A stretch of DNA of 64,000 nucleotides from the NCBI GenBank assembly GCA_045577455.1, contig JAZNIJ010000211.1:32706-96705 (forward strand). The letters run 5' to 3'. Made by a program: the position numbers and the translations under genes. Positions 9,559 through 24,736 of the stretch are shown piece after piece. The DNA is from Eubacteriales bacterium. GTDB lineage: Bacteria; Bacillota; Clostridia; Oscillospirales; CAG-382. Each line of letters opens with the position of its first letter. The stretch's first letter is position 1. The notes under the pieces are model-generated. The model saw only the letters and a program-made list of their open reading frames with translations. It searched no databases and was not told the DNA's origin.

Positions 9559-11604
9559 ATGAGAATCGCGCTGGCAGGAAATCCCAATAGCGGTAAAACA
9601 ACTATGTATAACGCTTTAACGGGACGAAGCGAAAAGGTTGGAAACTGGGCAGGGGTTACCGTTGAGAAGAAAGAGCACCCTATAAAAAAGAATTATGCGT
9701 CGGGGGAGGATATTGTTGCTGTTGACCTTCCGGGGGCTTATTCTATGTCTCCGTTCACAAGTGAAGAAAGTATAACAAGTACATATGTTAAGAACGAAAA
9801 TCCCGATGCTATTATTAATATCGTTGATGCAACGAATCTCAGCAGGAGCTTGTTTTTCACAACTCAGCTTTTGGAATTGGGCGTTCCCGTTGTTGTAGCT
9901 CTCAACAAAGCTGATATAAACAAGAAAAAACAGACAACAATTGATACCGCCTTGCTTTCCGAAAAGCTTGGATGCCCTGTTGTTGATACAACTTCAACTA
10001 CGGGCGAAGGGCTGAAAGCTGTTGTTGATGCAGCAATTGCTTTAAAGGGTAAGGAACAAAAAGCACCATATGAACAGGGAAATGTTGACTTAACAGATAA
10101 AAGCTCTGTTGTTGAAGCCGATAAAAAGCGTTTTGCCTTTGTTAATAACATAGTTTCCGCAGTTGAAAAGAGGAGCGTTTTAACAAGAGAAAAAAATAAG
10201 CAGGATAAAATAGACGATATACTTTTAAATAAATGGGTTGGTATTCCTATTTTTGCAATTGTTATGTATCTTGTTTTCTGGGTATCTCAGGTAGGGCCAG
10301 GTGTTTGGCTTGCAGAAGGAGTTGAAGTTGGTGGGAAATCGATTCCGGGTCTTGTTTCTCTTATAGAAATGGTGGGCGACAAGGTTGCTGTATTGATGGA
10401 AAACTCATCTCCGATTCTTCAGGCGATAGTTGTTGACGGAATAATTGGGGGCGTTGGAGCAGTTGTTGGCTTCTTGCCATTGGTTATGGTTATGTATTTC
10501 CTTCTTGCCCTACTTGAAGACTGTGGATATATGGCAAGAGTTTCTGTTGTTCTTGACCCGATTTTCAAAAAAGTTGGTTTGTCGGGAAAATCTGTAATAC
10601 CTTTTGTTATCGGCACAGGATGTGCGATTCCCGGCGTTATGGCTTGCAGAACAATAAGAGACGAAAGAGAACGCAGAGCAACTGCAATGCTCACACCGTT
10701 CATTCCCTGCGGAGCTAAAATTCCTGTTATAGCACTTCTTACAGGTCTTTTCTTCCCAAAATCCTCCTGGATAGCTCCTGCAATGTATTTCCTTGGACTT
10801 GTAATTATATTTTTGGGCGCTTTACTTATTAAATGGATTTCGGGATATAAATATAGAAAGTCATTCTTTATAATTGAGCTTCCTGAATATAAAATTCCCT
10901 CTGTTTGGAACGCAGTAAAATCAATGTGTGCTCGCGGTTGGTCTTATATTGTAAAAGCGGGAACAATAATTCTCCTTTGTAACGCAGTTGTTACAATTAT
11001 GTTGAACTTCACATGGTCTTTTGAAATTGCAGAAAATGCTGAAGATTCCATACTTCACAGCGTTTCCAGCCCTCTTTCTGTGTTGCTCATACCCCTTGGT
11101 TTTGGAATGTGGCAATTAGCCGCCGCCGCAATCACGGGCTTTATAGCAAAAGAAGAAGTTGTTGGAACTTTAGGCGCAATTTTCTCTGCTCTTGCAGTTG
11201 GAGAAGAATTTGAGCTTTTGGAAGCAGGAAACGGAACAGGACCCGTAGTTATGGGAATCTCTGCTGTTGCAGGTCTTGCATATCTTGTGTTTAACCTTTT
11301 CACACCACCTTGCTTTGCCGCAATCGGTGCAATGAATTCGGAAATAAAGAATAAGAAATGGCTCTTTGCAGGAATCGGTTTACAGCTCACTGTTGGTTAT
11401 ACTCTCGCATATCTGGTGTATCAGATTGGTACATTGATTAACGATGGAAAAGTTGGAGACGGTTTCGTCGGTGGACTTGTTGCGATTGGTGTTGCTGTTG
11501 TCTTTATTGTTGCGCTTGGTATAAGGTCAAATGCTAAAATGAAGGCAGAATATGAGGCAAAGCGCGCCGCAATGAAGGCAAAGCGCAACAATGTGAATGT
11601 GTAA
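9559..11604 (+). CDS. feoB: Ferrous iron transporter FeoB
   Basis: 681 aa. N-terminal G-domain with G1 GNPNSGKTT, DLPG and NKAD motifs, followed by a polytopic membrane domain. Confidence 0.95.
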   Translation: MRIALAGNPNSGKTTMYNALTGRSEKVGNWAGVTVEKKEHPIKKNYASGEDIVAVDLPGAYSMSPFTSEESITSTYVKNENPDAIINIVDATNLSRSLFFTTQLLELGVPVVVALNKADINKKKQTTIDTALLSEKLGCPVVDTTSTTGEGLKAVVDAAIALKGKEQKAPYEQGNVDLTDKSSVVEADKKRFAFVNNIVSAVEKRSVLTREKNKQDKIDDILLNKWVGIPIFAIVMYLVFWVSQVGPGVWLAEGVEVGGKSIPGLVSLIEMVGDKVAVLMENSSPILQAIVVDGIIGGVGAVVGFLPLVMVMYFLLALLEDCGYMARVSVVLDPIFKKVGLSGKSVIPFVIGTGCAIPGVMACRTIRDERERRATAMLTPFIPCGAKIPVIALLTGLFFPKSSWIAPAMYFLGLVIIFLGALLIKWISGYKYRKSFFIIELPEYKIPSVWNAVKSMCARGWSYIVKAGTIILLCNAVVTIMLNFTWSFEIAENAEDSILHSVSSPLSVLLIPLGFGMWQLAAAAITGFIAKEEVVGTLGAIFSALAVGEEFELLEAGNGTGPVVMGISAVAGLAYLVFNLFTPPCFAAIGAMNSEIKNKKWLFAGIGLQLTVGYTLAYLVYQIGTLINDGKVGDGFVGGLVAIGVAVVFIVALGIRSNAKMKAEYEAKRAAMKAKRNNVNV

Positions 11605-15238: not shown

Positions 15239-16219
15239 TTGGTTTCTATTAAAGACAGAATTTTAACATTTGCCAAAGGGTTATTTGTTGGTGGCTCTCT
15301 TTCTGTACCCGGAGTTAGCGGTGGCTCAATGGCAATGATTTTGGGAATTTACGATAGATTGATTTTTTCCCTTAACTCTTTGTTTAAGCCAAATAAAGAT
15401 GGAAAAATAAATAAAAAGGAAAACTTTTTGTTTTTGCTCGAAGCGGGATTGGGTGGAATTATCGGACTTTTAACCCTATACAAGTTGATAAGTTACCTTA
15501 TGCTTGAGTTTGGAATGCAGATGAGCTGTTTCTTTGTAGGAGCGGTTGCAGGAGGAATACCCCTTATTTTTAAGGCGGCAAAGGTTGTGAAGGTTCGTTT
15601 TTCAGACTTTGTGTGGATAATTATAGGCATAGCAACTGTTGTAGGTCTTATGTTTATCCCTGAAGGTCTTTTTAAAGGCGGCAACTTTTTTGTTAATATT
15701 ATAGGCGGTATAATTGTTGCTGCGGCTTTAGTGCTTCCGGGCCTTAGCGTTTCTCATATGCTTGTTATTATGGGACTTTATGATTTTGTTCTTGGAAACG
15801 CATCGGATTTAAATATAGTTCCTCTTATTCCCTTTGGAATCGGGCTTGTTATAGGCGTTGTTGCTACATCGGGCGGTATGGAAGTTCTGATGAAAAAATT
15901 CAACCGTCAGACATATCTTGCGGTCTTGGGCTTTGTTATCGGCTCTGTTTTCGCACTTGGCAAAGATGTGCTTGAAAAAATAATTGTTAAAACCACAGAA
16001 GATGGCTATGTGAATATTTTTTCAAATCTTGCAAAGTTGGAAGAAGATGGCAAAAAAATAATTATAACAACCGAAGAACAGTTTAATGAAGCAGGGCTTA
16101 TTATGCAAAGTGAGCTTACGGCAGTAGTTTGGATTGTTTGCGCTGTGCTTGTTGCGGTTGGTTTTGCCGTAGTGTTTGCACTCAGTAAAATGGAAGATAA
16201 AAAAACTTCAGATAAATAA
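15239..16219 (+). CDS. DUF368 family membrane protein (family proposed as a polyprenyl-phosphate translocase)
   Basis: 326 aa. TTG start after AGGAGGG. Signature PGVSGGSMAMILGIYDRLI with a second half-repeat LPGLSVSHMLVIMGLYD. Polytopic. Confidence 0.8.
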   Translation: MVSIKDRILTFAKGLFVGGSLSVPGVSGGSMAMILGIYDRLIFSLNSLFKPNKDGKINKKENFLFLLEAGLGGIIGLLTLYKLISYLMLEFGMQMSCFFVGAVAGGIPLIFKAAKVVKVRFSDFVWIIIGIATVVGLMFIPEGLFKGGNFFVNIIGGIIVAAALVLPGLSVSHMLVIMGLYDFVLGNASDLNIVPLIPFGIGLVIGVVATSGGMEVLMKKFNRQTYLAVLGFVIGSVFALGKDVLEKIIVKTTEDGYVNIFSNLAKLEEDGKKIIITTEEQFNEAGLIMQSELTAVVWIVCAVLVAVGFAVVFALSKMEDKKTSDK

Positions 16220-16237: not shown

Positions 16238-17524
16238 ATGATTGATATCAGACTTGTAAGAGAAAATCCGGATTTGGTTAGAGAAAATATCAGAAAGAAG
16301 TTTCAGGATTCAAAGCTCCCCTTGGTTGACGAGGTTATTGCTCTTGATAAAGAGTCCAGAGCTGTAAAAGGTGAAGCAGACTCCCTTCGTGCTGAAAGAA
16401 ACAAGATTTCTAAAGAAATCGGTGGTCTTATGGCAAAAGGAATGAAAGCGGAAGCAGAAGAGGCAAAGAAAAAGGTAACTGAAAAATCAGACCGTCTTGC
16501 AGAGCTTGAAGCAAAAGAAGCAGAGCTTGAAGAAAGAGTTAAAACTATAATGATGACAATTCCCAACATTATAGATGATAGCGTTCCCGTTGGAAAAGAT
16601 GACAGCGAAAATGTTGAAGTTCAGCGTTACGGCGAACCCATAGTTCCCGATTTTGATGTTCCTTATCATACAGAAATTATGGAGAGCTTCAACGGTATCG
16701 ACCTTGACAGCGCAGGCAGAGTTGCAGGAAACGGTTTTTATTACCTTATGGGCGATATAGCAAGACTTCATTCCGCAATGACAGCTTATGCAAGAGATTT
16801 TATGATAAACAAGGGATTCACCTATTGTATACCTCCGTTTATGATTCGTTCCAATGTTGTAACAGGCGTTATGAGCTTTGCTGAAATGGATTCTATGATG
16901 TATAAAATTGAAGGCGAAGACCTTTACCTTATTGGAACAAGCGAACATTCAATGATTGGTAAGTTTATTGATACAATAGTTCCCGAAGAAAAGCTCCCAC
17001 AAACATTAACCAGCTATTCTCCTTGCTTCCGTAAGGAAAAGGGTGCTCACGGTATCGAAGAAAGAGGTGTTTATCGTATTCACCAGTTCGAAAAACAGGA
17101 AATGATTGTTGTTTGTAAACCAGAAGACAGTATGGAATGGTTCAATAAAATGTGGAGCTACACAGTTGAGCTTTTCCGTTCTCTCGATATTCCTGTTCGC
17201 ACTCTTGAATGTTGCTCTGGCGACCTTGCTGACTTAAAGGTTAAATCAATCGATGTTGAGGCATGGTCTCCTCGTCAGAAGAAATATTTCGAGGTTGGAA
17301 GTTGCTCCAACTTGGGTGATGCTCAGGCAAGACGCCTTAAGATTCGTGTTGCAGGGGCAGATAAGAGCAAATATTTCGCTCATACACTTAACAACACCGT
17401 TGTTGCTCCTCCTCGTATGCTTATCGCATTTTTGGAAAACAACCTTAATGCAGATGGTAGCGTAAATATCCCTGTTGCTCTCCGTCCATATATGGGTGGA
17501 ATGGAAAAAATCTGTAAATCATAA
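16238..17524 (+). CDS. serS: Serine--tRNA ligase
   Basis: 428 aa. N-terminal coiled-coil arm (MIDIRLVRENPDLV...), then a class II core (TSEHSMIG, FRKEKGAHG, RIHQFEKQE, GSCSN). Confidence 0.95.
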   Translation: MIDIRLVRENPDLVRENIRKKFQDSKLPLVDEVIALDKESRAVKGEADSLRAERNKISKEIGGLMAKGMKAEAEEAKKKVTEKSDRLAELEAKEAELEERVKTIMMTIPNIIDDSVPVGKDDSENVEVQRYGEPIVPDFDVPYHTEIMESFNGIDLDSAGRVAGNGFYYLMGDIARLHSAMTAYARDFMINKGFTYCIPPFMIRSNVVTGVMSFAEMDSMMYKIEGEDLYLIGTSEHSMIGKFIDTIVPEEKLPQTLTSYSPCFRKEKGAHGIEERGVYRIHQFEKQEMIVVCKPEDSMEWFNKMWSYTVELFRSLDIPVRTLECCSGDLADLKVKSIDVEAWSPRQKKYFEVGSCSNLGDAQARRLKIRVAGADKSKYFAHTLNNTVVAPPRMLIAFLENNLNADGSVNIPVALRPYMGGMEKICKS

Positions 17525-17632: not shown

Positions 17633-17674
17633 AGCTTATAATTGCGAAAGTAAAAACTAAAAACTGTTTAAAAA

Positions 17675-17706
17675 TTAAACGCCGACGGTTAAAAGTCGGC
17701 GTTTAA
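17675..17706. terminator. Hairpin terminator
   Basis: TTAAACGCCGAC-ggttaaaa-GTCGGCGTTTAA, abutting the stop of the minus-strand gene at 17708. Confidence 0.7.
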
Positions 17707-17707
17707 T

Positions 17708-18118
17708 TTATGGAATGAAACTAAAAATATTTCTTAAAGCAATATAGCCAAAGCTGATTCCTGTTACGGTGAGAACAAAGGAAGCGGAACACATTTTGCT
17801 GATAACCTTGCGAGACCAAGATAAACCAAAAATCCAACCGCTGTTTACAAGGAATAGATAAAAAATGAAAAACAGCAAAAAAATCGGAACATAGGAATTG
17901 TATGTAAATGCTTCAGAAATATTTCCTCTCAACAAGGCGTTCACACAGTGTGTGCCACCGCAGGTGAGACATTTTATTCCTAAAATTTTATAATACAAAC
18001 AATCGCTGAGATTATCCAGCATACATGTAGACAACCGTTCACCAAAAACAAGAAAAAACAAAAATAGAAAATCTAAAAGTAAAGCAACTATTAACTTTAC
18101 TCTTTTATATTCTCGCAT
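17708..18118 (-). CDS. DUF2752 domain membrane protein
   Basis: 136 aa. N-terminal TM helix, then CxxCGxT motif (CLTCGGTHCVNALLRG), then further TM helices. Confidence 0.7.
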   Translation of the reverse strand: MREYKRVKLIVALLLDFLFLFFLVFGERLSTCMLDNLSDCLYYKILGIKCLTCGGTHCVNALLRGNISEAFTYNSYVPIFLLFFIFYLFLVNSGWIFGLSWSRKVISKMCSASFVLTVTGISFGYIALRNIFSFIP

Positions 18119-18136
18119 AAGAAAATATTATGTTAG

Positions 18137-18496
18137 TTAAATGCGAATACCGTAATCCGCTAAGATGCTTGCGCCAACGAGAACAAGAATTAAACAAACA
18201 ATATAGAAAACGGTCATTATTATTGAAATAACAAGACCGGCAACACCTAAGCCGTTGCCCATGCCTACCTGTTTGCTTTTGCTCATACCTATGCCTGAAA
18301 GGATTATGCCAATGATGGATGTTGGCAAACCAACATAAACACCGCCGATGAAGCAACCGATAAAAGAAATTATGCTAAGAACAAAACCAGCGATTCCAAG
18401 ACTTTTGCCGGGGTTAACGGGTGGTTGTGGCTGGAAATTATTCTGATAAGGGGGTTGATACTGATTTTGCTGGTAGTTGTTATAGTTCTGATTCAT
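18137..18496 (-). CDS. DUF4190-like small membrane protein with a Q/N/P-rich N-terminus
   Basis: ATG 18496 lies 7 nt after GGAGG (18508-18504). MNQNYNNYQQNQYQPPYQNNFQPQPPVNPG, followed by glycine-rich TM helices. Confidence 0.7.
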   Translation of the reverse strand: MNQNYNNYQQNQYQPPYQNNFQPQPPVNPGKSLGIAGFVLSIISFIGCFIGGVYVGLPTSIIGIILSGIGMSKSKQVGMGNGLGVAGLVISIIMTVFYIVCLILVLVGASILADYGIRI

Positions 18497-18808
18497 ACAG
18501 ATACCTCCGTTTTTTGGGTAAAAACCCATATTGTACGAAAATTATAACATAATTATATTAAAAAATCAATACTTTTTTTAATATTATGTCGTTTTTTATT
18601 GCTTGTTGCTGTTTGATTTGTTTTGATGAAGAGTATATTTTCTGATATATTAAACATCGTAAAGGATTGTCTTGTAGAATGTGGAGATATAATCTTTGAG
18701 GGTATCAAAGTGTATTTATCAATTTTAGGAAACAAAACGCTATAACGGTCAATTTTTTCACCTTTTTTGAATATAATAATCATAAGCAATTCAATTTTGG
18801 AGGGTGAA

Positions 18809-19501
18809 ATGTTTGGTATTTTGTTGCGGTTTGTGTTTTTGTTTCTTCGTGTTAATGGAAACAATTCTTTTCTTGACCCACTCAGTGCAGAGGATGAGAG
18901 AAAATACTTTGAACTTGCTTCCAAAGGGGATGAGAAGGCGCGCGAGAAGTTGATTTTACATAATATGCGCCTTGTTGCCCACATTGTGAAAAAATATTAT
19001 TCCAACATAAAAGAACAGGATGATTTGATTTCAATAGGTACAATAGGTCTGATAAAGGGAATAGACTCTTTTAAAGGCGAAAAGGGTGCAAAGTTTGCAA
19101 CATATGCAGGAAAATGTATTCAAAATGAAATACTTATGTATTTTCGCTCTCAAAAAAAGCTGAATAACGAAACCTCAATCAATGACAGTATAGATGTTGA
19201 TAAAGACGGAAACCCACTTACATACATGGAAATACTTTCCGAGGAGGATAATATTGCCGAAACCATTGATAGAAGTATAAAGCTGTCGGTTATGATGAGG
19301 GCAATAGAAACTGTGCTTGATGAGAGGGAAAGAGAAATAATAGAAAAGCGGTACGGATTAAAAACATCATCTGAAGAACTTCCCCAACGAGAAGTTGCAA
19401 AACAGCTTGGAATTTCTCGCTCATATGTTTCACGAATTGAAAAAACAGCCCTTGGAAAAATAGAATCATATATGCGAAAAAAAGGATATGATGAGGAATA
19501 G
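18809..19501 (+). CDS. sigK: Sporulation sigma factor SigK (pro-sigma-K), uninterrupted
   Basis: ATG 18809 follows GGAGGG. A hydrophobic pro-sequence MFGILLRFVFLFLRV is followed by NNSFLDPLSAEDERKYFEL..GDEKAR..LILHNMRLVAHIVKK, DLISIGTIGLIK and region 4 LGISRSYVSRIEKTAL, which match SigK better than SigE. Confidence 0.85.
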   Translation: MFGILLRFVFLFLRVNGNNSFLDPLSAEDERKYFELASKGDEKAREKLILHNMRLVAHIVKKYYSNIKEQDDLISIGTIGLIKGIDSFKGEKGAKFATYAGKCIQNEILMYFRSQKKLNNETSINDSIDVDKDGNPLTYMEILSEEDNIAETIDRSIKLSVMMRAIETVLDEREREIIEKRYGLKTSSEELPQREVAKQLGISRSYVSRIEKTALGKIESYMRKKGYDEE

Positions 19502-19623
19502 GGACATATTGAAAGTTGCATCTGCAAGTATATTGATTGTGCCCTGGCAAACCACCGGGTTGGGTGTTGTGAAGTGTTGACGCGCTTGCCCAGTGTCTCA
19601 ATTATTTTGTGTTTAAGTTATAT

Positions 19624-19641
19624 AATTGCTTGCAAGCAATT
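19624..19641. promoter_or_regulatory. Perfect 18-bp palindrome AATTGCTTGCAAGCAATT
   Basis: Self-complementary over all 18 nt. Overlaps a TATAAT hexamer at 19621-19626, ~145 nt upstream of the integrase ATG. Confidence 0.5.
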
Positions 19642-19735
19642 GTTCTGAAAAAACGCTGCTTATTTTGTGGGCAATATATATTTTAAAAGAAATATTGGAT
19701 AGTCTTATGTGAAATGGAAAGGTGTTTCAAAAACA

Positions 19736-19768
19736 GTCATAACCACCGGCTTAGCCGGTGGTTATGAC
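19736..19768 (+). other. Perfect 15-bp-stem hairpin immediately upstream of the integrase RBS
   Basis: GTCATAACCACCGGC-tta-GCCGGTGGTTATGAC. No U-tract follows; the RBS GAAGGAG starts 4 nt later. Confidence 0.7.
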
Positions 19769-19786
19769 TACGAAGGAGTGATGCCA

Positions 19787-20845
19787 ATGAGCAACAAAAC
19801 AAAAGAACATGACATTGTAACCGCGATCTTGGATGGTGCTTTTGACAAGCCATGGGCGGTGTATTCCCCGGAGGAATACAAGCACCAGTTAGCGGAAACA
19901 CAAGCCGAGGTTAAAAAGCTGACACCCGATGAAGAAAAGACGAAGATGAATAAGCGTATGAGTCTTCGTGTACAGGCTACTGCGATTTACAGAAAGGATC
20001 AGCATGGAAGCAAGGCAACCAGAAAAAGGTACTATCAAGCCTTCTGTTGCGCCTGCGATTATCTTGCCGATACCTGTAATCTGCAAAAGGTCTCTAACAT
20101 TACACCTACGCATTTCCGCAAGGTGGTGGAGTATTGGAAGTCATACAAAGCACCGAGCACCATTCAAACGGAAGTTTCCGGTTTTCGTAAATACTGCGAA
20201 TATGCAAAATGTAAACACAAGATGCCTGAGAATAAGGAATTGACGCTCCCAAAGCGTGAACCGAAAAAGTACAACCGTGGATGGTTGCTCACTGAGTATC
20301 AGAAGGCAAGGGAGATTGCGGACTTTATGCGTAGATACGACGTGCGTGACGGATTAGATTTGGGATGGCACTTGGGACTTCGTATCATCGAGGCTTGTCA
20401 GCTCAAGTTGGGTGATGTGAAAACGGCACTTGGATGGGGAGGTCCTAACATTAAAGGCAAGGGCGGTCAGGTTCGTTTCGTTACAATCGAGACAGAGGAA
20501 CAGTTGGAGCTTCTTAAACGCTTGTACCGCGAAGTCAAGGCAAAGGGACTTACGGACAATGATTTTATTATCAGTAAGTCAATCTATAAAGGGCCGCTTA
20601 TGGAGAAGAAGTCAATCGAAAACTGGATCTACAATCACCGTAAGGAATTTACCGATCCGGATCGTCAGAAGAAGGTTACTCCCGGTAAAAAGCCCCGTGT
20701 TGATAAACTTGTTTTCCACGGACTTCGCCACTCCTACAATCAGAACCGTGAAAAGTGGTTGGCGGGCGATCCGAGAAAACTCCAGAAGCTCAGTCAGGAT
20801 CTGGGACACCGTCGCTAAGAGGTAAATGATATTTATAGAGAATAG
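19787..20845 (+). pseudogene. Tyrosine recombinase (phage integrase family) interrupted by an in-frame TAA before the catalytic Tyr
   Basis: Box residues are present: R (LGLRIIEA), K (IKGKGGQVRFV), HGLRH, LGH. TAA at 20816-20818 is followed in frame by EVNDIYRE and TAG (20843-20845). The Tyr codon at 20834-20836 sits 9 residues after the LGH His, the canonical spacing. Likely start is ATG 19787 (RBS GAAGGAG); the track start at 19709 runs through the hairpin. Confidence 0.75.
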
Positions 20846-20855
20846 GAGGAGATAA

Positions 20856-21017
20856 GTGGGAAAAGAGGTAAAAATCATTCTTAAATCCCACATACCTGAA
20901 GATGAAATTGAAGCATTGGCAAAATGCTTCCTGCCGGACATATTAGACTTTTTTGAATCCGAAGAAGGCAGACAAGAATTTGAACAGTGGACAAGAGAAT
21001 ATGATAAAAATAGCTGA
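20856..21017 (+). CDS. Small acidic hypothetical protein (53 aa)
   Basis: Below the track cutoff. GTG 20856 lies 5 nt after AGGAGGA. Reads MGKEVKIILKSHIPEDEIEALAKCFLPDILDFFESEEGRQEFEQWTREYDKNS. Confidence 0.55.
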   Translation: MGKEVKIILKSHIPEDEIEALAKCFLPDILDFFESEEGRQEFEQWTREYDKNS

Positions 21018-21072
21018 GGTTGGTATATTTAAAACACATCTAGGATATAATTGAATATATGGAGGTATTAAA

Positions 21073-21318
21073 ATGGATAATATTACATTGGAAACCTTTA
21101 TTAAAAAGATCAACGATCAGAGTTCTAAACCGATGACGTTAGAAATGCTGAAGACTACTTGTATTGTAAATTCCAAGCGATTGATTGGTGAAATTGAAAA
21201 GCTCGAAAATATGATTTTGACAGCAAGCGAAAAAGAGTTAAGCGGCATTTTACTCATCGGAGCAAAATTAGAAATTATTATTCATGATATGGTAAATCTT
21301 GAAAATTATTTGCTATAA
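21073..21318 (+). CDS. Hypothetical helical protein (81 aa)
   Basis: ATG follows GGAGG (21061-21065). Predicted all-helical, no recognised motif. Ends at the bidirectional terminator. Confidence 0.55.
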   Translation: MDNITLETFIKKINDQSSKPMTLEMLKTTCIVNSKRLIGEIEKLENMILTASEKELSGILLIGAKLEIIIHDMVNLENYLL

Positions 21319-21328
21319 TGACAAGATA

Positions 21329-21375
21329 AAAACCATCATTGCCACATGTGACGAAACTGCGGCAATGATGGTTTT
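21329..21375. terminator. Bidirectional terminator (15-bp stem)
   Basis: AAAACCATCATTGCC-17 nt-GGCAATGATGGTTTT between convergent ORFs 21073-21318 (+) and 21379-21795 (-). Confidence 0.85.
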
Positions 21376-21378
21376 GTT

Positions 21379-21795
21379 TTAAATATTTATGCGTTTTATA
21401 TTACCTAAAACTGTTTCGTATTCATTACCTATATCAGTATTAGTAAGAACAATAGCATTCTTAAGTCTTAACAAACTATTAATTGAAAACTCATTATTTA
21501 TCCAGATTTTTTTGGTGTTATAATTAAATTTGTCTAATCTATATTCCAATTCATTTATTTTTTTTGAAAGGATATACAAATGCGTATCTGTCAGCGAAAA
21601 ATAACTTTCTTTGCAATCAAATACAAATTTGTCTTTTCTCAAATGTTCTACATATAATTGAAAAATATTAATATCAGACAATGATTCACCGTTGCTTCGC
21701 AAATGAGTTTTCAAATAATCTAAGCTAATCCAGCTTATATCCTTTGTTTTTATTCTGTCGACCAAAGATTCAATTGTATCAATTGTTGCTGTCAT
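21379..21795 (-). CDS. Orphan protein B (138 aa), second gene of the island operon
   Basis: ATG at 21795-21793 overlaps the stop of gene A (ATGA). MTATIDTIESLVDRIKTKDISWISLDYLKTHLRS... is soluble with no recognised family. The track start at 21828 is an in-frame upstream alternative. Confidence 0.65.
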   Translation of the reverse strand: MTATIDTIESLVDRIKTKDISWISLDYLKTHLRSNGESLSDINIFQLYVEHLRKDKFVFDCKESYFSLTDTHLYILSKKINELEYRLDKFNYNTKKIWINNEFSINSLLRLKNAIVLTNTDIGNEYETVLGNIKRINI

Positions 21796-22238
21796 ATTAA
21801 CTTTTTCTCCTTTTCCATCCGGGTGCAAAGTGCGTGTAACTTTCTTTGAAAGTTATTGGCTGTGTTTTCGACATCACTTGAGTTTTTACTTTTTTCTGCC
21901 ATGGAAATAAGTTCTTTTATATCTGGCACAACATTTTTCTTTAAAAGGTTACCATAATTTATGAGTATATCATCAAGTTGCTCAATTACCCAATCGTATA
22001 CCGTATTTCCACATATTGTTGAATCTTTTTTTAAGGTTTCCTCATAGGACCTTAATATTTTAATTCGATCATCAATATCTTTTAAATACTCCGACTTTTC
22101 AACATATAGTAACAACGATCTCTTGATTCCTACCGTGGTTAATAATGTCCATATCGTTATAATTAGTCCTATCCACGATAAAATGTCGGTTACAGCCGAA
22201 AAATAATCCCAAAAGCCCCATTGAACTACATTCTCCAG
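21792..22238 (-). CDS. Orphan single-TM protein A, first gene of the island operon (start uncertain)
   Basis: The track ORF (TTG 22115) is preceded by 41 in-frame sense codons encoding a TM helix (DILSWIGLIITIWTLLTTVGIKRS). RBS AAGAGG (22253-22248) sits 6-9 nt before ATC 22241 / CTG 22238. No canonical start lies upstream of 22115. Confidence 0.6.
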   Translation of the reverse strand: MENVVQWGFWDYFSAVTDILSWIGLIITIWTLLTTVGIKRSLLLYVEKSEYLKDIDDRIKILRSYEETLKKDSTICGNTVYDWVIEQLDDILINYGNLLKKNVVPDIKELISMAEKSKNSSDVENTANNFQRKLHALCTRMEKEKKLI

Positions 22239-22281
22239 GATAACGCACCTCTTTTCTATATACAGACCTACCCTAATCTAG

Positions 22282-22310
22282 ATTTTAGCACAAACACTAC
22301 AAAATGTCAA
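22282..22310 (-). promoter_or_regulatory. Near-consensus sigma-A promoter of the A-B operon
   Basis: On the minus strand: TTGACA (22310-22305), 17-nt spacer, TGcTAAAAT (-10 at 22287-22282). Confidence 0.65.
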
Positions 22311-22330
22311 TATACTTAAATGTATACAAC

Positions 22331-22370
22331 AAACCCGAACGTTTCACCAATCGGTAAAAGGTTCGGGTTT
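22331..22370 (-). terminator. Hairpin just downstream of the tRNA-Leu 3' end
   Basis: AAACCCGAAC-20 nt-GTTCGGGTTT (10-bp stem), 9 nt from the tRNA CCA end. Confidence 0.5.
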
Positions 22371-22378
22371 GAATGCTT

Positions 22379-22461
22379 TGGTGCGGCCGATGGGACTTGA
22401 ACCCATACGGTTGCCCACACGCCCCTCAAACGTGCGCGTCTGCCAGTTCCGCCACGGCCGC
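22379..22461 (-). tRNA. tRNA-Leu (anticodon GAG), type II with encoded CCA
   Basis: 83 nt, folded by hand. Acceptor GCGGCCG/CGGCCGC; D arm GCG-GAACTGGCAGA-CGC; anticodon stem CACGT/GCGTG with loop TTGAGGG; long variable arm TGGGCAACCGT; T arm ATGGG-TTCAAGT-CCCAT; ACCA end. Confidence 0.9.
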
Positions 22462-22503
22462 ATACCATTTTAATTGAGGGTGTTTCCCTCAGAGAGCTTA
22501 TTC

Positions 22504-22531
22504 ATTATATCACAAATTTTGTATTTGTCAA
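22504..22531 (-). promoter_or_regulatory. Sigma-A promoter for tRNA-Leu
   Basis: On the minus strand: TTGACA (22531-22526), 16-nt spacer, TGaTATAAT (-10 at 22509-22504), ~40 nt upstream of the mature 5' end. Confidence 0.6.
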
Positions 22532-22832: not shown

Positions 22833-23018
22833 TTATCGAGACCACATCAGATACAACGATACGGAAACGATAAACACTAATGCTGTTGCTCCAACCATAA
22901 GCGAAGGAATTGACAGCAAAGCATCGCAAGCTAAAAACATACCGGTGCTGAATGCACAAAGAATCCCTGAAAGGCAACCTATTATAGAAGCACATTTTAC
23001 TTTGAAGGACTTTTCCAT
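22833..23018 (-). CDS. Small two-TM hydrophobic protein (61 aa)
   Basis: ATG 23018 lies 6 nt after GAGGTG. MEKSFKVKCASIIGCLSGILCAFSTGMFLACDALLSIPSLMVGATALVFIVSVSLYLMWSR. Has its own terminator. Confidence 0.6.
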   Translation of the reverse strand: MEKSFKVKCASIIGCLSGILCAFSTGMFLACDALLSIPSLMVGATALVFIVSVSLYLMWSR

Positions 23019-23215
23019 ATTGCGCACCTCATTATTTTATCTACAATATCATTTTAATAGAAAGAGAAGTCTTTTTCAACCAATAAAATGAAAAACAAAA
23101 AAGAATAAATATGTGCAAAAAACCTCTAAAGGGGCAATATGTAAAGAATTATAGTTTTTTAAGTAAAACATTTATGTAACATCGCTATAAATAGTTAGAA
23201 TTCTTTTGTTCTTAC

Positions 23216-24736
23216 TTAAGGAATCAAAATAGATTTAACACCTTTTGCAACGATTCCATCCGATGTGAAAGAAGAAGCATTCTCTTTTTCCATTTTAACA
23301 GGGTCTATTCCATATTCTTTTGAAATATCCCAAAGAGTTTCCTTTTCGTTTGGGTAATAGATTGTGATGCGGCTTTTATCCCTTGTTTCTCTCGCAGAAG
23401 AAGGTGAAAAATCTGAAATCACCTCTTGGCTTCTTGCTTCGTAACGCCTTATAGTTGCATTTGCTGAAACTCTCACAGTAATTACATCACGCCCTGTAAT
23501 CATTGAAGAAGCTCCCGTTGGTATAACCGAACAGCGACAAAAGGCACTTCCCGACATTTCCGGAAACATTTCGGAAAAATTAACGGTAAAACTAACGCTG
23601 TCAATTCCACTTTCCGTCTTTCCTAAAACAGATATTCCACAAATTCCGTTAATTTTCTCTCCTTGTTCTGTTTTTTCAACGGATTCAACATCCATAACGA
23701 CATTTGTGTCATATATTTCAGATATCTCTGTGCCGGGAATTTCAAAAATTTTTTCAATAGTAAATGGGCGCGAAAAAACATCAACAAGCTCATTGAAATT
23801 AAGAGTTTCTGTTTTTGCCGAAAGAAGGTCTGAGGGCGAGAACACATCCCTTGGTAGTTCCTCGTTTTTTTCTTTGACTCTGAAAATCGTTAAAGTTGGA
23901 GAGTAAAAGAACCTTAAAACCCTGTCTTCACCATATTTATCAATATCTTTTTCTGCCATTTGGTTGTTAACCGCAAGATAATAGTAAATGATTGTGTTTT
24001 CGTCTATGGCTTCGTTCTCTATGGTTAACGAAATAGGAACGGAGCGTGAAAACAGATTGTATTTTCCGTCTCCCTCGTAAAACACCTTAAAAATCGCGGA
24101 GGTATTAAGGGTTACAGACTCGAAAGATTTAACAATATCTAAGGGGATAAGACGGACAGATGAAAAAATAATCTTATCAACGGAAGGATATGAGCTGTCA
24201 ACGGTAAATTCTTCTTCAAAAGAAAAAGACTGGGTTAAAGGCGGCAAAAACTCCTGAAACGGAAAGTTTATCGTATCATAAAATAAAATATTGTTTCCTG
24301 AATTGATATCGGGAATCTCTGTTGCAACATTCTCATTTGCTTCAAGATGAATTTTATTTTTACCCTTTATGTATAACTTTCTTGGAGAAATAACCTTACA
24401 GCTTATAAATGTGCAAAAAACTTTGGCAAAAGTTAAAAGATTTTCCGAATCTGTTTTCATATCAATGCTAACGTCAAAATCATCGGAGAAGTTTAACGGT
24501 TCAACGCTTCCGTCCTCAGCGGATTGATAAAGTATTCTGAAAGTGTTTTTTCCAAACACATCGGCAATGTTGCTTTTAGTTGTAACATCGGTTATTTCAG
24601 GCAATGATTCAATTTGAATGAGCTTTGATATCCCCGCCATAGTTTCGGGTAATTCGTATTCTTTCTCCCATTCTGTATATGTGTATCCGCTGTATGCGGT
24701 TTTTGGGAGGTAAACTGTTTTTTTAGGTGTATTCAT
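23216..24736 (-). CDS. DUF3794 (SPOCS)-like plus C-terminal LysM protein, SpoVID/SafA-like sporulation protein
   Basis: C-terminal LysM pattern ITIYYPNEKETLWDISKEYGIDPVKMEKEN...GVKSILIP. The long N-terminal region resembles the DUF3794 proteins of Clostridia. ATG 24736 (MNTPKKTVYLPK) is preferred over track start 24865, which would overlap pepV. Confidence 0.55.
   Translation of the reverse strand: MNTPKKTVYLPKTAYSGYTYTEWEKEYELPETMAGISKLIQIESLPEITDVTTKSNIADVFGKNTFRILYQSAEDGSVEPLNFSDDFDVSIDMKTDSENLLTFAKVFCTFISCKVISPRKLYIKGKNKIHLEANENVATEIPDINSGNNILFYDTINFPFQEFLPPLTQSFSFEEEFTVDSSYPSVDKIIFSSVRLIPLDIVKSFESVTLNTSAIFKVFYEGDGKYNLFSRSVPISLTIENEAIDENTIIYYYLAVNNQMAEKDIDKYGEDRVLRFFYSPTLTIFRVKEKNEELPRDVFSPSDLLSAKTETLNFNELVDVFSRPFTIEKIFEIPGTEISEIYDTNVVMDVESVEKTEQGEKINGICGISVLGKTESGIDSVSFTVNFSEMFPEMSGSAFCRCSVIPTGASSMITGRDVITVRVSANATIRRYEARSQEVISDFSPSSARETRDKSRITIYYPNEKETLWDISKEYGIDPVKMEKENASSFTSDGIVAKGVKSILIP

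What the first reader, a model, noticed from the sequence alone, without database searches (positions are those of the whole stretch)
19502..22378. Small decayed integrative island wedged between sigK and the 3' end of tRNA-Leu(GAG)
This 2.9-kb segment lies between two core loci. It contains a tyrosine integrase (inactivated, see separate finding) and four ORFs with no recognisable family, and it ends flush with the 3' end of a tRNA, the usual integration target. Hand GC counts on 60-nt samples were as follows.
- Cargo: 14/60 (21381-21440) and 15/60 (21901-21960).
- Integrase: 29/60 (20401-20460).
- sigK: 20/60 (19021-19080).
- A core gene: 26/60 (15301-15360).
The island is therefore itself a mosaic. 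I could not find a direct repeat of the tRNA 3' end in 19502-19790, so the distal att site has decayed or the true boundary differs.
Basis: partly seen in the sequence, partly recalled or inferred. Interest (0 to 1): 0.55.

Follow-up and report, generated by a model that had tools for sequence, protein, structure and literature searches.

The report
Decayed integrase island at tRNA-Leu
A 2.85-kb strain-specific insert between the sporulation sigma factor gene sigK and a leucine tRNA gene is the disabled leftover of a small mobile element whose integrase has lost its catalytic tyrosine and its upstream control region; it carries a few genes of unknown function and is an ordinary genomic fossil.

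Summary
tRNA-Leu(GAG) lies at 22379-22461 (-) and sigK at 18809-19501 (+). All five hand GC counts are exact, and no att direct repeat exists.

- **Boundaries:** Conspecific contigs (95% identity) match the window only to 19527. A related genome matches from the other side exactly to the tRNA 3' end (22377). The variable segment is therefore 19528-22378.
- **Integrase:** The integrase (19787-20818) is 83-90% identical to 352-aa integrases. A single TTA>TAA change removes the last 9 residues, including the catalytic Tyr (homologs end ...LGHRRLEVNDIYRE).
- **Same module elsewhere:** The module of integrase, 53-aa ORF and terminal hairpin (22326-22378) sits at the 3' end of tRNA-Leu(GAG) in L081 and of tRNA-Leu(CAG) in L097. 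Cargo differs (L081) or is absent (L097). Integrase plus a divergent small ORF sits about 3.7 kb from a tmRNA 3' end in L091.
- **What is missing:** Six other copies whose upstream DNA was examined keep a conserved iteron-rich noncoding region upstream of the integrase, about 1.2 kb where the contig reaches that far. The window lacks it; homology starts at 19770.
- **Cargo:** The cargo (20999-22325, 30% GC) has its own promoter and four small ORFs with no known family.

Verdict: an immobilised remnant of a tRNA-targeting integrative element. It is a new member of a known kind and of low interest.

The parts
19528..19769 (.). Orphan left segment of 242 nt (38% GC). It is absent from conspecific contigs and from all other copies of the element, and its origin is unresolved. 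It may be the far-left end of the island or displaced tRNA-downstream host DNA.
   Evidence: Homology with L101-L103 ends at 19527. Homology with other integrase loci starts at 19770. No match was found in any fetched locus. There is no significant similarity to the L093 tRNA-downstream tail.
19735..19769 (-). Perfect 17+17-nt palindrome followed on the minus strand by GTTTTTG. It looks like an intrinsic terminator for a leftward transcript and abuts the point where element homology begins.
   Evidence: Inverted repeat I9. It is unique in the window. RNA fold is -30.5 kcal/mol, z = -8.1.
19787..20845 (+). Tyrosine integrase pseudogene. The ORF runs 19787-20818 (343 codons). The residual 8 codons plus the original stop (20819-20845) still encode EVNDIYRE*.
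   Evidence: 89% identical over 352 aligned positions to P0002. Matches PF00589, XerC/D and PHROG integrase models. Full-length homologs are 352 aa.
20816..20818 (+). Premature TAA stop codon. Homologs have Leu here, encoded by TTA in L081. It removes the C-terminal 9 residues, including the catalytic Tyr.
   Evidence: Translation; homolog C-termini LGHRRLEVNDIYRE; L081 DNA cgccgtTTAgaggtaaatgat.
20856..21017 (+). Conserved 53-aa acidic small ORF of the integrase module (possible directionality factor; function inferred only). Its last ~6 codons have been replaced by cargo DNA.
   Evidence: It belongs to a 25-member cluster at 90% identity; one member is seen on 132 contigs. DNA is 93-96% identical among the window, L081, L097 and L099, while the integrase genes are 70-85% identical.
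20999..22325 (.). Cargo block, 30% GC. It sits between the small ORF and the terminal hairpin, a slot that is empty in L097 and L099 and filled by other genes in L081.
   Evidence: No match in any fetched locus.
21073..21318 (+). ORF81, unknown function, with a good GGAGG ribosome-binding site.
   Evidence: No family hit. Only one other cluster member among about 15 billion proteins.
21329..21375 (.). Bidirectional terminator hairpin between the convergent ORF81 and ORF138.
   Evidence: Inverted repeat I12. RNA fold is -27.6 kcal/mol, z = -7.7.
21379..21795 (-). ORF138, member of a small uncharacterised family of ~140-aa proteins (invariant W22, D88, W98). Its start overlaps the ORF107 stop (ATGA).
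   Evidence: 28 representative clusters at E<=1e-3. Alignment A3. No Pfam hit for any member. AlphaFold model pLDDT 89. No PDB fold match. Two uncharacterised gut Siphoviridae proteins match in BFVD at E 1.5e-4.
21792..22115 (-). ORF107, unknown function, translationally coupled to ORF138.
   Evidence: No family hit. Singleton cluster. No tblastn match in plasmids or phages.
22099..22221 (-). ORF40, a hypothetical small peptide with a hydrophobic N-terminus and the first gene of the cargo operon. This is a weak gene call.
22282..22310 (-). Sigma-70-type promoter of the cargo operon (TTGACA, 17-nt spacer, TGcTAAAAT).
   Evidence: 11 of 12 consensus positions, with an extended -10.
22326..22378 (-). 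Terminal segment of the element with a 19-bp hairpin (22330-22371). It now serves as the terminator of tRNA-Leu.
   Evidence: 94-100% identical in all pairwise comparisons among the window, L081, L097 and L099. It is absent from L093, which has a different terminator after the same tRNA. RNA fold is -27.8 kcal/mol, z = -6.5.
22379..22461 (-). Host tRNA-Leu(GAG), the integration target. The junction lies at its CCA end, within TTTGG|TGC.
   Evidence: ARAGORN and Rfam. An identical tRNA with the same 5' flank occurs in L093. Its perfect TTGACA-16-TATAAT promoter is at 22504-22531.

Best explanation
The segment 19528-22378 is the immobilised, tRNA-proximal remnant of a small site-specific integrative element. 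The family is common in uncultured gut Clostridia (Oscillospiraceae/Eubacteriales MAGs).

Intact relatives have this layout:
- variable genes on the far side, such as restriction-modification or Abi systems;
- a conserved noncoding region upstream of the integrase, about 1.2 kb where the contig reaches that far, with 9-11 mostly same-strand copies of a TTTCGGAATGA-like motif in full-length copies, plus several hairpins;
- a 352-aa tyrosine integrase;
- a small acidic ORF of ~54-60 aa;
- a terminal hairpin that abuts the CCA end of a tRNA-Leu gene.

The element joined the chromosome by integrase-mediated recombination at the extreme 3' end of tRNA-Leu(GAG). The inferred crossover lies within TTTGGTG. 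The element's hairpin took over as the tRNA terminator.

Three later changes fixed it in place:
1. A TTA>TAA mutation removed the catalytic tyrosine of the integrase.
2. Everything upstream of the integrase ribosome-binding site was lost, including the iteron region and whatever lay beyond it up to the distal att site.
3. A 1.3-kb AT-rich cargo block replaced the 3' end of the small ORF and its terminator.

The cargo keeps a strong promoter, translational coupling and a terminator, so it may still be expressed. Its function is unknown.

Shown: the boundaries, the family relationship, the nonsense codon, the missing upstream region and the recurrent tRNA-end location. Inferred: the crossover core, the order of events, the role of the small ORF and expression of the cargo.
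For: - **Junctions:** L101-L103 match the window to 19527 and no further. L093 matches from 24792 to 22377, exactly the tRNA 3' end, then has its own terminator.
- **Integrase family:** 81 homologs were found. The top ones are 352 aa and 83-90% identical, and end ...LGHRRLEVNDIYRE. The window reads LGHRR*EVNDIYRE*. P0002 aligns to the XerC model through residue 350, whereas the window protein stops at model position 228.
- **Recurrent tRNA-end location:** L081 has an intact integrase, the small ORF, a 192-aa gene and a Peptidase_U49-like gene, the same hairpin and tRNA-Leu(GAG) (97% identity over 22326-22463), in different host flanks. L097 has the integrase, small ORF and hairpin directly on tRNA-Leu(CAG) with no cargo. 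L091 has the integrase, a divergent small ORF and cargo about 3.7 kb from a tmRNA 3' end, without the hairpin.
- **Missing upstream region:** L081, L082, L090, L091, L094 and L097 share the iteron-rich noncoding region at 74-88% identity. The window has none of it anywhere, and homology begins at 19770.
- **Composition:** Both blocks are compositional extremes of the window.
- **Not core synteny:** No integrase and no tRNA-Leu(GAG) lies near sigK in 80 GTDB sigK loci.
- **Cargo signals:** Promoter, terminator hairpin and overlapping ATGA stop/start.
Against: - No contiguous empty site was recovered. The conspecific contigs end 230-300 nt after sigK in a 57-nt tandem repeat, and L093 ends 200 nt past the tRNA.
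- No displaced tRNA fragment or att repeat exists, so integration at the tRNA is inferred from the junction comparisons only.
- The distal end of an intact family member was never seen. Whether the far-side restriction-modification genes belong to the same element is therefore uncertain.
- Integrases about 88% identical sit near two different Leu tRNAs and a tmRNA. That is unusual for a strictly site-specific enzyme and could mean the module rides in other islands.
- The TAA could be a sequencing or assembly error in a MAG-like contig.
- The nearest annotated relatives of the integrase (25-30% identity) are on small non-mobilizable Firmicutes plasmids, not in known islands or phages.
Confidence: 0.8

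Rival explanations
1. The element is complete and still mobile. On this view the TAA is a sequencing or assembly error. The true left end is at 19770, next to the displaced original tRNA terminator (the 19735-19769 palindrome), and the integrase is read from an outside promoter.
For: The palindrome is a strong minus-strand terminator in the position and orientation expected for the original tRNA-Leu terminator, and element homology starts on the very next base. A single-base difference creates the stop.
Against: Six other copies examined upstream keep the iteron-rich noncoding region, so its absence here is a derived loss. There is no att repeat. The left segment shows no significant similarity to the tRNA-downstream DNA of the relative L093 (26 of 300 shuffles score as high). 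The small ORF has also lost its 3' end and terminator.
Confidence: 0.07
2. The integrase is not a tRNA-targeting integrase. On this view it is a plasmid-type resolution or maintenance module (iterons plus recombinase) that travels inside other islands. Its position near tRNA genes reflects those islands' own, now lost, integration machinery or a general hotspot.
For: The only annotated relatives are tyrosine recombinases of small non-mobilizable Firmicutes plasmids. The upstream region looks iteron-like. In L082 and L090 the module sits next to a large serine recombinase and defence genes, not a tRNA. Near-identical integrases sit near three different RNA genes.
Against: In L097 the integrase, small ORF and hairpin abut the tRNA with nothing between them and no other recombinase on the contig. 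The hairpin at the junction travels with the integrase module across four contexts and is absent from the island-free junction in L093. No replication gene accompanies the module.
Confidence: 0.12
3. The region is ordinary, vertically inherited core DNA. The apparent boundaries would then reflect only fast-evolving intergenic sequence.
For: No contiguous empty site was found.
Against: Flanks are 84-95% identical up to sharp breakpoints, with no residual similarity beyond them. The integrase is 85-86% identical at DNA level to copies in unrelated genomic contexts. Composition is at both extremes of the window. ORF107 and ORF138 are singletons among about 15 billion proteins.
Confidence: 0.02
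4. It is a skin-like, sporulation-linked intervening element associated with sigK.
For: It lies 26 nt downstream of sigK.
Against: The sigK gene is uninterrupted and full length. The recombinase is a tyrosine type and is broken, not a SpoIVCA-type large serine recombinase. The same module occurs far from any sigK gene.
Confidence: 0.01

Closest known systems
tRNA/tmRNA-integrated genomic islands driven by tyrosine integrases (the class catalogued by Islander/TIGER; PMC4383910, PMC12424338)
   Same: It has a tyrosine integrase gene and sits against the 3' end of an intact tRNA gene. Element DNA supplies the sequence directly downstream of the tRNA. Composition is atypical, the segment is strain-specific, and cargo varies. 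Relatives also occur near tmRNA.
   Different: No displaced tRNA fragment marks the far end. The junction is at the very CCA end, so any shared core is only ~5-7 bp. The integrase is a pseudogene and its upstream region is deleted, so this copy is a fossil and not a mappable island.
Integrative mobilizable elements and small defence islands of Firmicutes
   Same: Relatives are small and carry an integrase plus a few accessory genes. These include restriction-modification systems, AbiE, and a Lit/CapP-like peptidase in L081, L082, L090 and L097.
   Different: No relaxase or oriT was recognised. The window's own cargo matches no known defence family (PADLOC). The long iteron-rich noncoding region upstream of the integrase is not, to my knowledge, a described feature of these elements.
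Tyrosine recombinases of small cryptic Firmicutes plasmids (proteins annotated 'phage integrase N-terminal domain-containing', PF12834/PF12835 types)
   Same: They are the closest annotated sequence relatives (25-30% identity over >80% of the length). They share the SAM-like N-domain families seen in distant homologs.
   Different: Identity is very low. Those recombinases are plasmid-borne and presumably resolve multimers, whereas this one is chromosomal and sits at tRNA ends.
skin element of Bacillus subtilis and Clostridioides difficile (sigK intervening element)
   Same: It is a mobile-element remnant physically associated with sigK in a spore former.
   Different: The skin element interrupts the sigK reading frame and is excised by the large serine recombinase SpoIVCA during sporulation (established knowledge). 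Here sigK is intact, the element lies downstream of it, and the recombinase is a broken tyrosine type.

Membership tests
Tyrosine recombinase / phage integrase superfamily (PF00589) | Sequence similarity to the catalytic domain | tested here: met
   PF00589 E 2.1e-5, 24.8 bits; this is just below the 27.1 gathering score because the C-terminus is missing. Also XerC/XerD/XerA NCBIfam models and PHROG_1 integrase at 9e-16. Full-length homologs carry precomputed PF00589.
Tyrosine recombinase / phage integrase superfamily (PF00589) | C-terminal catalytic tyrosine after the LGH motif | tested here: not met
   The window reads LGHRR*; the Tyr codon lies 6 codons after the TAA, within EVNDIYRE. Homologs read LGHRRLEVNDIYRE. 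The gene is a family member by descent but a pseudogene.
tDNA-integrated genomic island (Islander definition, PMC4383910) | Integrase gene within the island | tested here: met
   Present at 19787-20818, but inactivated.
tDNA-integrated genomic island (Islander definition, PMC4383910) | Intact tRNA or tmRNA gene at one end, regenerated by island sequence | tested here: met
   tRNA-Leu(GAG) is intact. Homology with the island-free relative L093 stops at its last base. The adjoining hairpin is shared with other copies of the element.
tDNA-integrated genomic island (Islander definition, PMC4383910) | Displaced tRNA 3' fragment as a direct repeat at the other end | tested here: not met
   No repeat was found by seed search or local alignment. 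The only other TTTGGTG heptamer in the segment lies inside the cargo, on the strand opposite ORF138.
tDNA-integrated genomic island (Islander definition, PMC4383910) | Absence from the same site in related genomes (empty site) | tested here: inconclusive
   Each junction was shown separately. The relatives' contigs end within 200-300 nt, so no contiguous empty site was seen.
skin (sigK intervening) element | Interrupts the sigK coding sequence and encodes a SpoIVCA-type large serine recombinase | tested here: not met
   The sigK gene is full length and scores 279 bits on the SigK model. There is no resolvase or recombinase domain in the segment.
Known anti-phage defence systems (PADLOC-DB) | Cargo proteins match a defence-system model | tested here: not met
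   No hit at E<=1 for any of the five small window ORFs. Only the L081 cargo peptidase hits CapP weakly, at 6e-4.

The most novel reading that the evidence does not exclude
The integrase, small ORF and hairpin module may define an undescribed family of minimal integrative elements (~2.6 kb core) in gut Clostridia. Four features would set it apart:
- They recombine at the CCA end of tRNA-Leu genes, and perhaps tmRNA, through a very short core.
- They depend on an unusually long iteron-rich noncoding region (about 1.2 kb where fully seen).
- They keep a hyper-conserved end (93-100% DNA identity, against 70-85% for the integrase gene).
- That end works as a fixed slot where accessory genes are swapped.

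On this reading the window's ORF40-ORF107-ORF138 operon would be a new phage-related exclusion or toxin-antitoxin module. ORF138 has fold relatives only in gut siphoviruses.
Probability: 0.15. Interest if true: 0.5.

Novelty: new member of a known kind. Interest (0 to 1): 0.2.

Why it matters
For this genome it matters little. It marks a strain-specific, horizontally acquired patch that annotation should flag as an integrase pseudogene plus orphan genes. It has no bearing on sigK function.

More broadly, it points to an abundant but unnamed integrase family in gut and rumen Clostridia. One 90%-identity cluster has 140 member sequences, and another was seen on 85 contigs. In other genomes the family carries defence genes to tRNA-Leu sites, and possibly tmRNA sites. 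Its att architecture is uncharacterised.

Tried and rejected
- **Exact-protein look-ups:** Look-ups of the window's sigK (two start choices), serS and the 100%-identical hit P0097 found nothing. Same-strain contigs could not be fetched, and conspecific contigs had to be reached through 99% homologs.
- **GTDB scan with sigK:** The closest species (82% SigK) have tRNA-Gly(CCC) and tRNA-Ala(CGC) after sigK and no useful synteny.
- **att repeats:** None were found in the window or in L081. The heptamer TTTGGTG gave no informative second copy in any locus.
- **Displaced terminator idea:** I tested whether 19528-19769 is the displaced tRNA-downstream DNA by aligning it to the L093 tail. The result was not significant.
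- **Noncoding RNA:** Rfam found nothing beyond tRNA, tmRNA and SRP RNA in the window region or in the upstream noncoding regions.
- **Coding potential of the upstream region:** Similarity appears in all frames on both strands, so it is noncoding.
- **Integrase in other collections:** No close relatives in IMG/VR, INPHARED phages or PDB sequences.
- **Cargo proteins:** No tblastn hit in plasmids or phages and none in IMG/VR.
- **Other copies in the window:** There is no second integrase or iteron region.
- **skin-like reading:** Rejected because sigK is intact.


Full report
**1. What is in the window**

The region has this gene order:
- serS, 16238-17524 (+)
- two small membrane-protein genes, DUF2752 and DUF4190 (-)
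- sigK, 18809-19501 (+), which scores 279 bits against a 252-bit cut-off on the NCBIfam SigK model
- the segment in question
- tRNA-Leu(GAG), 22379-22461 (-)
- a SipL-domain sporulation gene, 23216-24736 (-)

The tRNA has a perfect TTGACA-16-TATAAT promoter at 22504-22531.

All five hand GC counts are exact. The integrase block (19770-20998) is 45.1% GC and the cargo block (20999-22325) is 30.0%. Each sits at the extreme of all 1.2-kb windows in the 64 kb (mean 38.8%, sd 2.7). The compositional mosaic is therefore real.

**2. The integrase is a pseudogene**

The ORF 19787-20818 matches PF00589, XerC/D/A models and PHROG integrases. A search of 5.8 billion protein clusters returned 81 homologs. 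The closest are 83-90% identical and 352 aa long.

These homologs end ...LGHRRLEVNDIYRE, whereas the window reads ...LGHRR*EVNDIYRE*. In L081 the corresponding codon is TTA, so one T>A change created the stop.

The intact homolog P0002 aligns to the XerC model through residue 350. The window protein stops at model position 228 of 295. The lost nonapeptide contains the tyrosine that follows the LGH motif. By established knowledge of tyrosine recombinases, that residue is the catalytic nucleophile. I cannot exclude a sequencing error.

**3. Boundaries from relatives**

- **No same-strain contigs.** Exact look-ups of the window's own proteins found nothing usable.
- **sigK side.** SigK homologs at 99% identity led to three conspecific contigs, L101-L103. 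These are about 95% identical to the window across serS and sigK, and homology stops at 19527, 26 nt after the sigK stop. Beyond that they carry a 57-nt tandem repeat and the contigs end.
- **tRNA side.** SipL homologs led to L092 (89% DNA identity; the contig ends inside the tRNA) and L093 (GCA_045593425.1; 84%). L093 is colinear from 24792 down to 22377, the last base of the tRNA. It then continues with its own terminator (AAAAAGACAGGTTTTAACCTGTTTTTTTTT) and unrelated DNA.

The strain-specific segment is therefore 19528-22378. No contiguous empty site was recovered. The L093 tail and the L101 tail do not overlap each other and match nothing in the window.

Among 80 GTDB sigK loci, none has this integrase or a tRNA-Leu(GAG) near sigK. 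The nearest species (82% SigK) have tRNA-Gly(CCC) and tRNA-Ala(CGC) after sigK.

**4. The same module elsewhere**

Contexts of integrase homologs were fetched.

| Locus | Arrangement |
|---|---|
| L081 (a different organism) | intact integrase, small ORF (frameshifted), 192-aa gene plus Peptidase_U49/CapP-like gene, then a hairpin and tRNA-Leu(GAG) that are 97% identical to window 22326-22463; host flanks differ |
| L097 (human gut) | integrase, small ORF, a terminator, the same hairpin, then tRNA-Leu(CAG); no cargo at all; followed by host genes resembling yerC and hisZ (read from the sequence, not tested) |
| L099 | integrase 3' end, small ORF, the hairpin, TTTGG, then non-tRNA DNA from another mobile element |
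| L091 | integrase, a divergent small ORF, then a 3.4-kb cargo (methyltransferase, HhH-GPD, guanylate-kinase-like, HTH) flanked by a 45-nt direct-repeat hairpin, next to a tmRNA 3' end; no counterpart of the hairpin |
| L082-L089 and L090 | integrase followed at once by a small ORF that I read as TnpW-like (from memory, not tested) plus a large serine recombinase, i.e. another mobile element |

The hairpin 22326-22378 travels with the integrase module. It is absent from the island-free junction of L093, so it is element DNA that now terminates the tRNA.

The window, L081, L097 and L093 all share TTTGGTGC across the junction; L099 shares TTTGG only, and the L091 tmRNA end reads TTTGGTGG. The crossover therefore lies at the CCA end, with at most ~5-7 bp of shared core. 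This would explain why no long att repeat can be found, but it remains an inference.

**5. What the window copy has lost**

Six other copies whose upstream DNA was examined (L081, L082, L090, L091, L094, L097) share a conserved noncoding region upstream of the integrase, at 74-88% identity; it spans about 1.2 kb where the contig reaches that far. Its features:
- 9-11 mostly same-strand copies of a TTTCGGAATGA-like motif in three clusters in full-length copies, and 5 in truncated contigs, well above the density in the surrounding locus DNA
- several conserved hairpins
- no consistent reading frame
- no Rfam match

To its left, three loci carry different defence genes: a type IIG restriction-modification system (L082), AbiE plus a type III system (L090), and an XRE regulator plus an N6-methyltransferase (L097).

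The window has none of this. Homology starts at 19770, only 17 nt before the start codon.

The 242 nt between 19528 and 19769 match nothing fetched. They end in a perfect 17+17 palindrome followed on the minus strand by GTTTTTG, a strong leftward terminator (-30.5 kcal/mol, z = -8.1). This could be the terminator of a deleted leftward cargo gene or the displaced original tRNA terminator. An alignment to the L093 tail was not significant, so the origin is unresolved.

**6. Cargo**

The cargo lies between the small ORF and the hairpin. That slot is empty in L097 and L099 and filled differently in L081. In the window, 20999-22325 replaces the last ~6 codons of the small ORF and its terminator. 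It contains:
- ORF81 (+), with a GGAGG ribosome-binding site
- a bidirectional terminator at 21329-21375 (z = -7.7)
- a minus-strand operon driven by a TTGACA-17-TGcTAAAAT promoter at 22282-22310: a 40-aa hydrophobic peptide, ORF107 and ORF138, the last two overlapping in ATGA

None of these ORFs hits Pfam, NCBIfam, PHROGs or PADLOC, or plasmid and phage records. ORF107 and ORF138 are singletons at 90% identity among about 15 billion proteins.

ORF138 has 28 remote cluster relatives of ~140 aa, with invariant W22, D88 and W98, and none has a Pfam domain. An alignment-based AlphaFold model is confident (pLDDT 89) but has no PDB fold match. Its only matches are two uncharacterised proteins of gut siphoviruses (E 1.5e-4, TM about 0.55). 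Function is unknown. A phage-related accessory role is a guess.

**7. Interpretation**

The simplest reading is that an integrative element of this family entered at the CCA end of tRNA-Leu(GAG). This copy was later immobilised by loss of the catalytic tyrosine and deletion of the upstream att/regulatory region, along with everything distal to it. A separate AT-rich cargo block was also swapped into the small ORF/hairpin slot.

The small ORF and hairpin DNA is 93-100% identical among copies whose integrase genes are only 70-85% identical. This fits protein-binding att-arm DNA, or recent exchange by homologous recombination at conserved ends. Such exchange would also explain the cargo swapping.

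Rivals considered:
- The copy is still active and the TAA is an error.
- The module is a plasmid-type resolution unit riding in other islands; its nearest annotated relatives are on small Firmicutes plasmids.
- The region is core DNA.
- It is a skin-like sigK element.

These are weighed in the rival explanations. The last two are effectively excluded.

**8. Comparison with known systems and verdict**

This is the classical tRNA-associated genomic island of the Islander/TIGER kind (PMC4383910, PMC12424338) in a degraded state.
- It meets the integrase, intact-tRNA and atypical-composition criteria.
- It fails the displaced-fragment criterion.
- The empty-site criterion is only half shown.

It is unrelated to the skin element despite lying next to sigK. 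The finding is correct and ordinary, a new member of a known kind. The only modestly unusual material lies in the intact relatives outside the window: the long iteron-rich region, the hyper-conserved CCA-end module, and the use of two Leu tRNAs and possibly tmRNA.

Noticed in passing
window 17648-18730: A second strain-specific indel. The 1.08 kb between serS and sigK, carrying the DUF2752 and DUF4190 membrane-protein genes (minus strand, 33.7% GC), is absent from the conspecific contigs L101 and L103. There serS and sigK are only about 220 nt apart.
   Followed up: partly
L101 2804-2997 (also L103; start of L102 tail): In conspecific strains the DNA after sigK is a 57-nt tandem repeat (2.9 copies, 89% matches) made of paired hairpin-like units. 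All three contigs end in or just before it. Its nature is unknown.
   Followed up: partly
L082 8570-9984; L090 8395-9738; L097 1383-2634; L091 1-753; L081 1-588; L094 1-703: A conserved noncoding region upstream of the integrase in other copies, about 1.2-1.4 kb where complete. It has clusters of TTTCGGAATGA-like direct repeats, three conserved hairpins and a 24-bp near-palindrome (TACGCCTGCAATATTGTAGGCGTA) at its left edge. It has no ORF and no Rfam match. It could be arm-type integrase sites, an origin, or an RNA. There were too few sequences for a covariation test.
   Followed up: partly
window 20845-20998 and 22326-22378, against L081, L097, L099: The small ORF and terminal hairpin DNA is 93-100% identical among copies whose integrase genes are only 70-85% identical. 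This suggests constraint at the DNA level or recent recombination at the element end.
   Followed up: partly
L091 2040-2085 and 5460-5505: A 45-nt terminator-like hairpin is present as a direct repeat on both sides of the 3.4-kb cargo (methyltransferase, HhH-GPD, guanylate-kinase-like, HTH_26). The cargo lies between the integrase module and a tmRNA gene, which suggests cassette-like insertion or tandem accretion.
   Followed up: no
L081 1998-3654: The cargo at the same slot in another organism is a 192-aa Cys-rich protein plus a 310-aa protein. The latter matches Peptidase_U49 (a weak precomputed Pfam hit) and weakly matches PADLOC CapP (6e-4). This is a candidate abortive-infection pair.
   Followed up: partly
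L031, L038, L040, L054, L056, L070, L073, L079: In 8 of 80 GTDB sigK loci a SipL-like gene (about 20% identity to the window's) lies 70-330 nt downstream of sigK on the same strand. In the window the SipL gene is convergent with sigK, with the tRNA and the island between them. This points to a loose ancestral sigK-sipL neighbourhood with an inversion here.
   Followed up: partly
L100 10001-10228: Another fossil of the same integrase. Only the last ~76 codons remain, in a 116-kb contig next to what look like core genes; one ORF at 11002-11259 looks like an alpha/beta-type SASP by eye, not tested. Decay of this integrase is therefore recurrent.
   Followed up: partly
L082 938-4264: To the left of the restriction-modification genes that flank the integrase module there is a run of genes resembling a Tn916-type regulatory and recombination end. 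It comprises an ECF-like sigma factor, an HTH_17 protein and a split integrase (251 + 174 aa). The module sits in a pile-up of mobile elements there.
   Followed up: no
window 22833-23027 (-): A 64-aa hydrophobic ORF (MEKSFKVKCASIIGCLSG...) between tRNA-Leu and the SipL gene is conserved in L092 and L093. It is probably a real, unannotated small membrane-protein gene.
   Followed up: no
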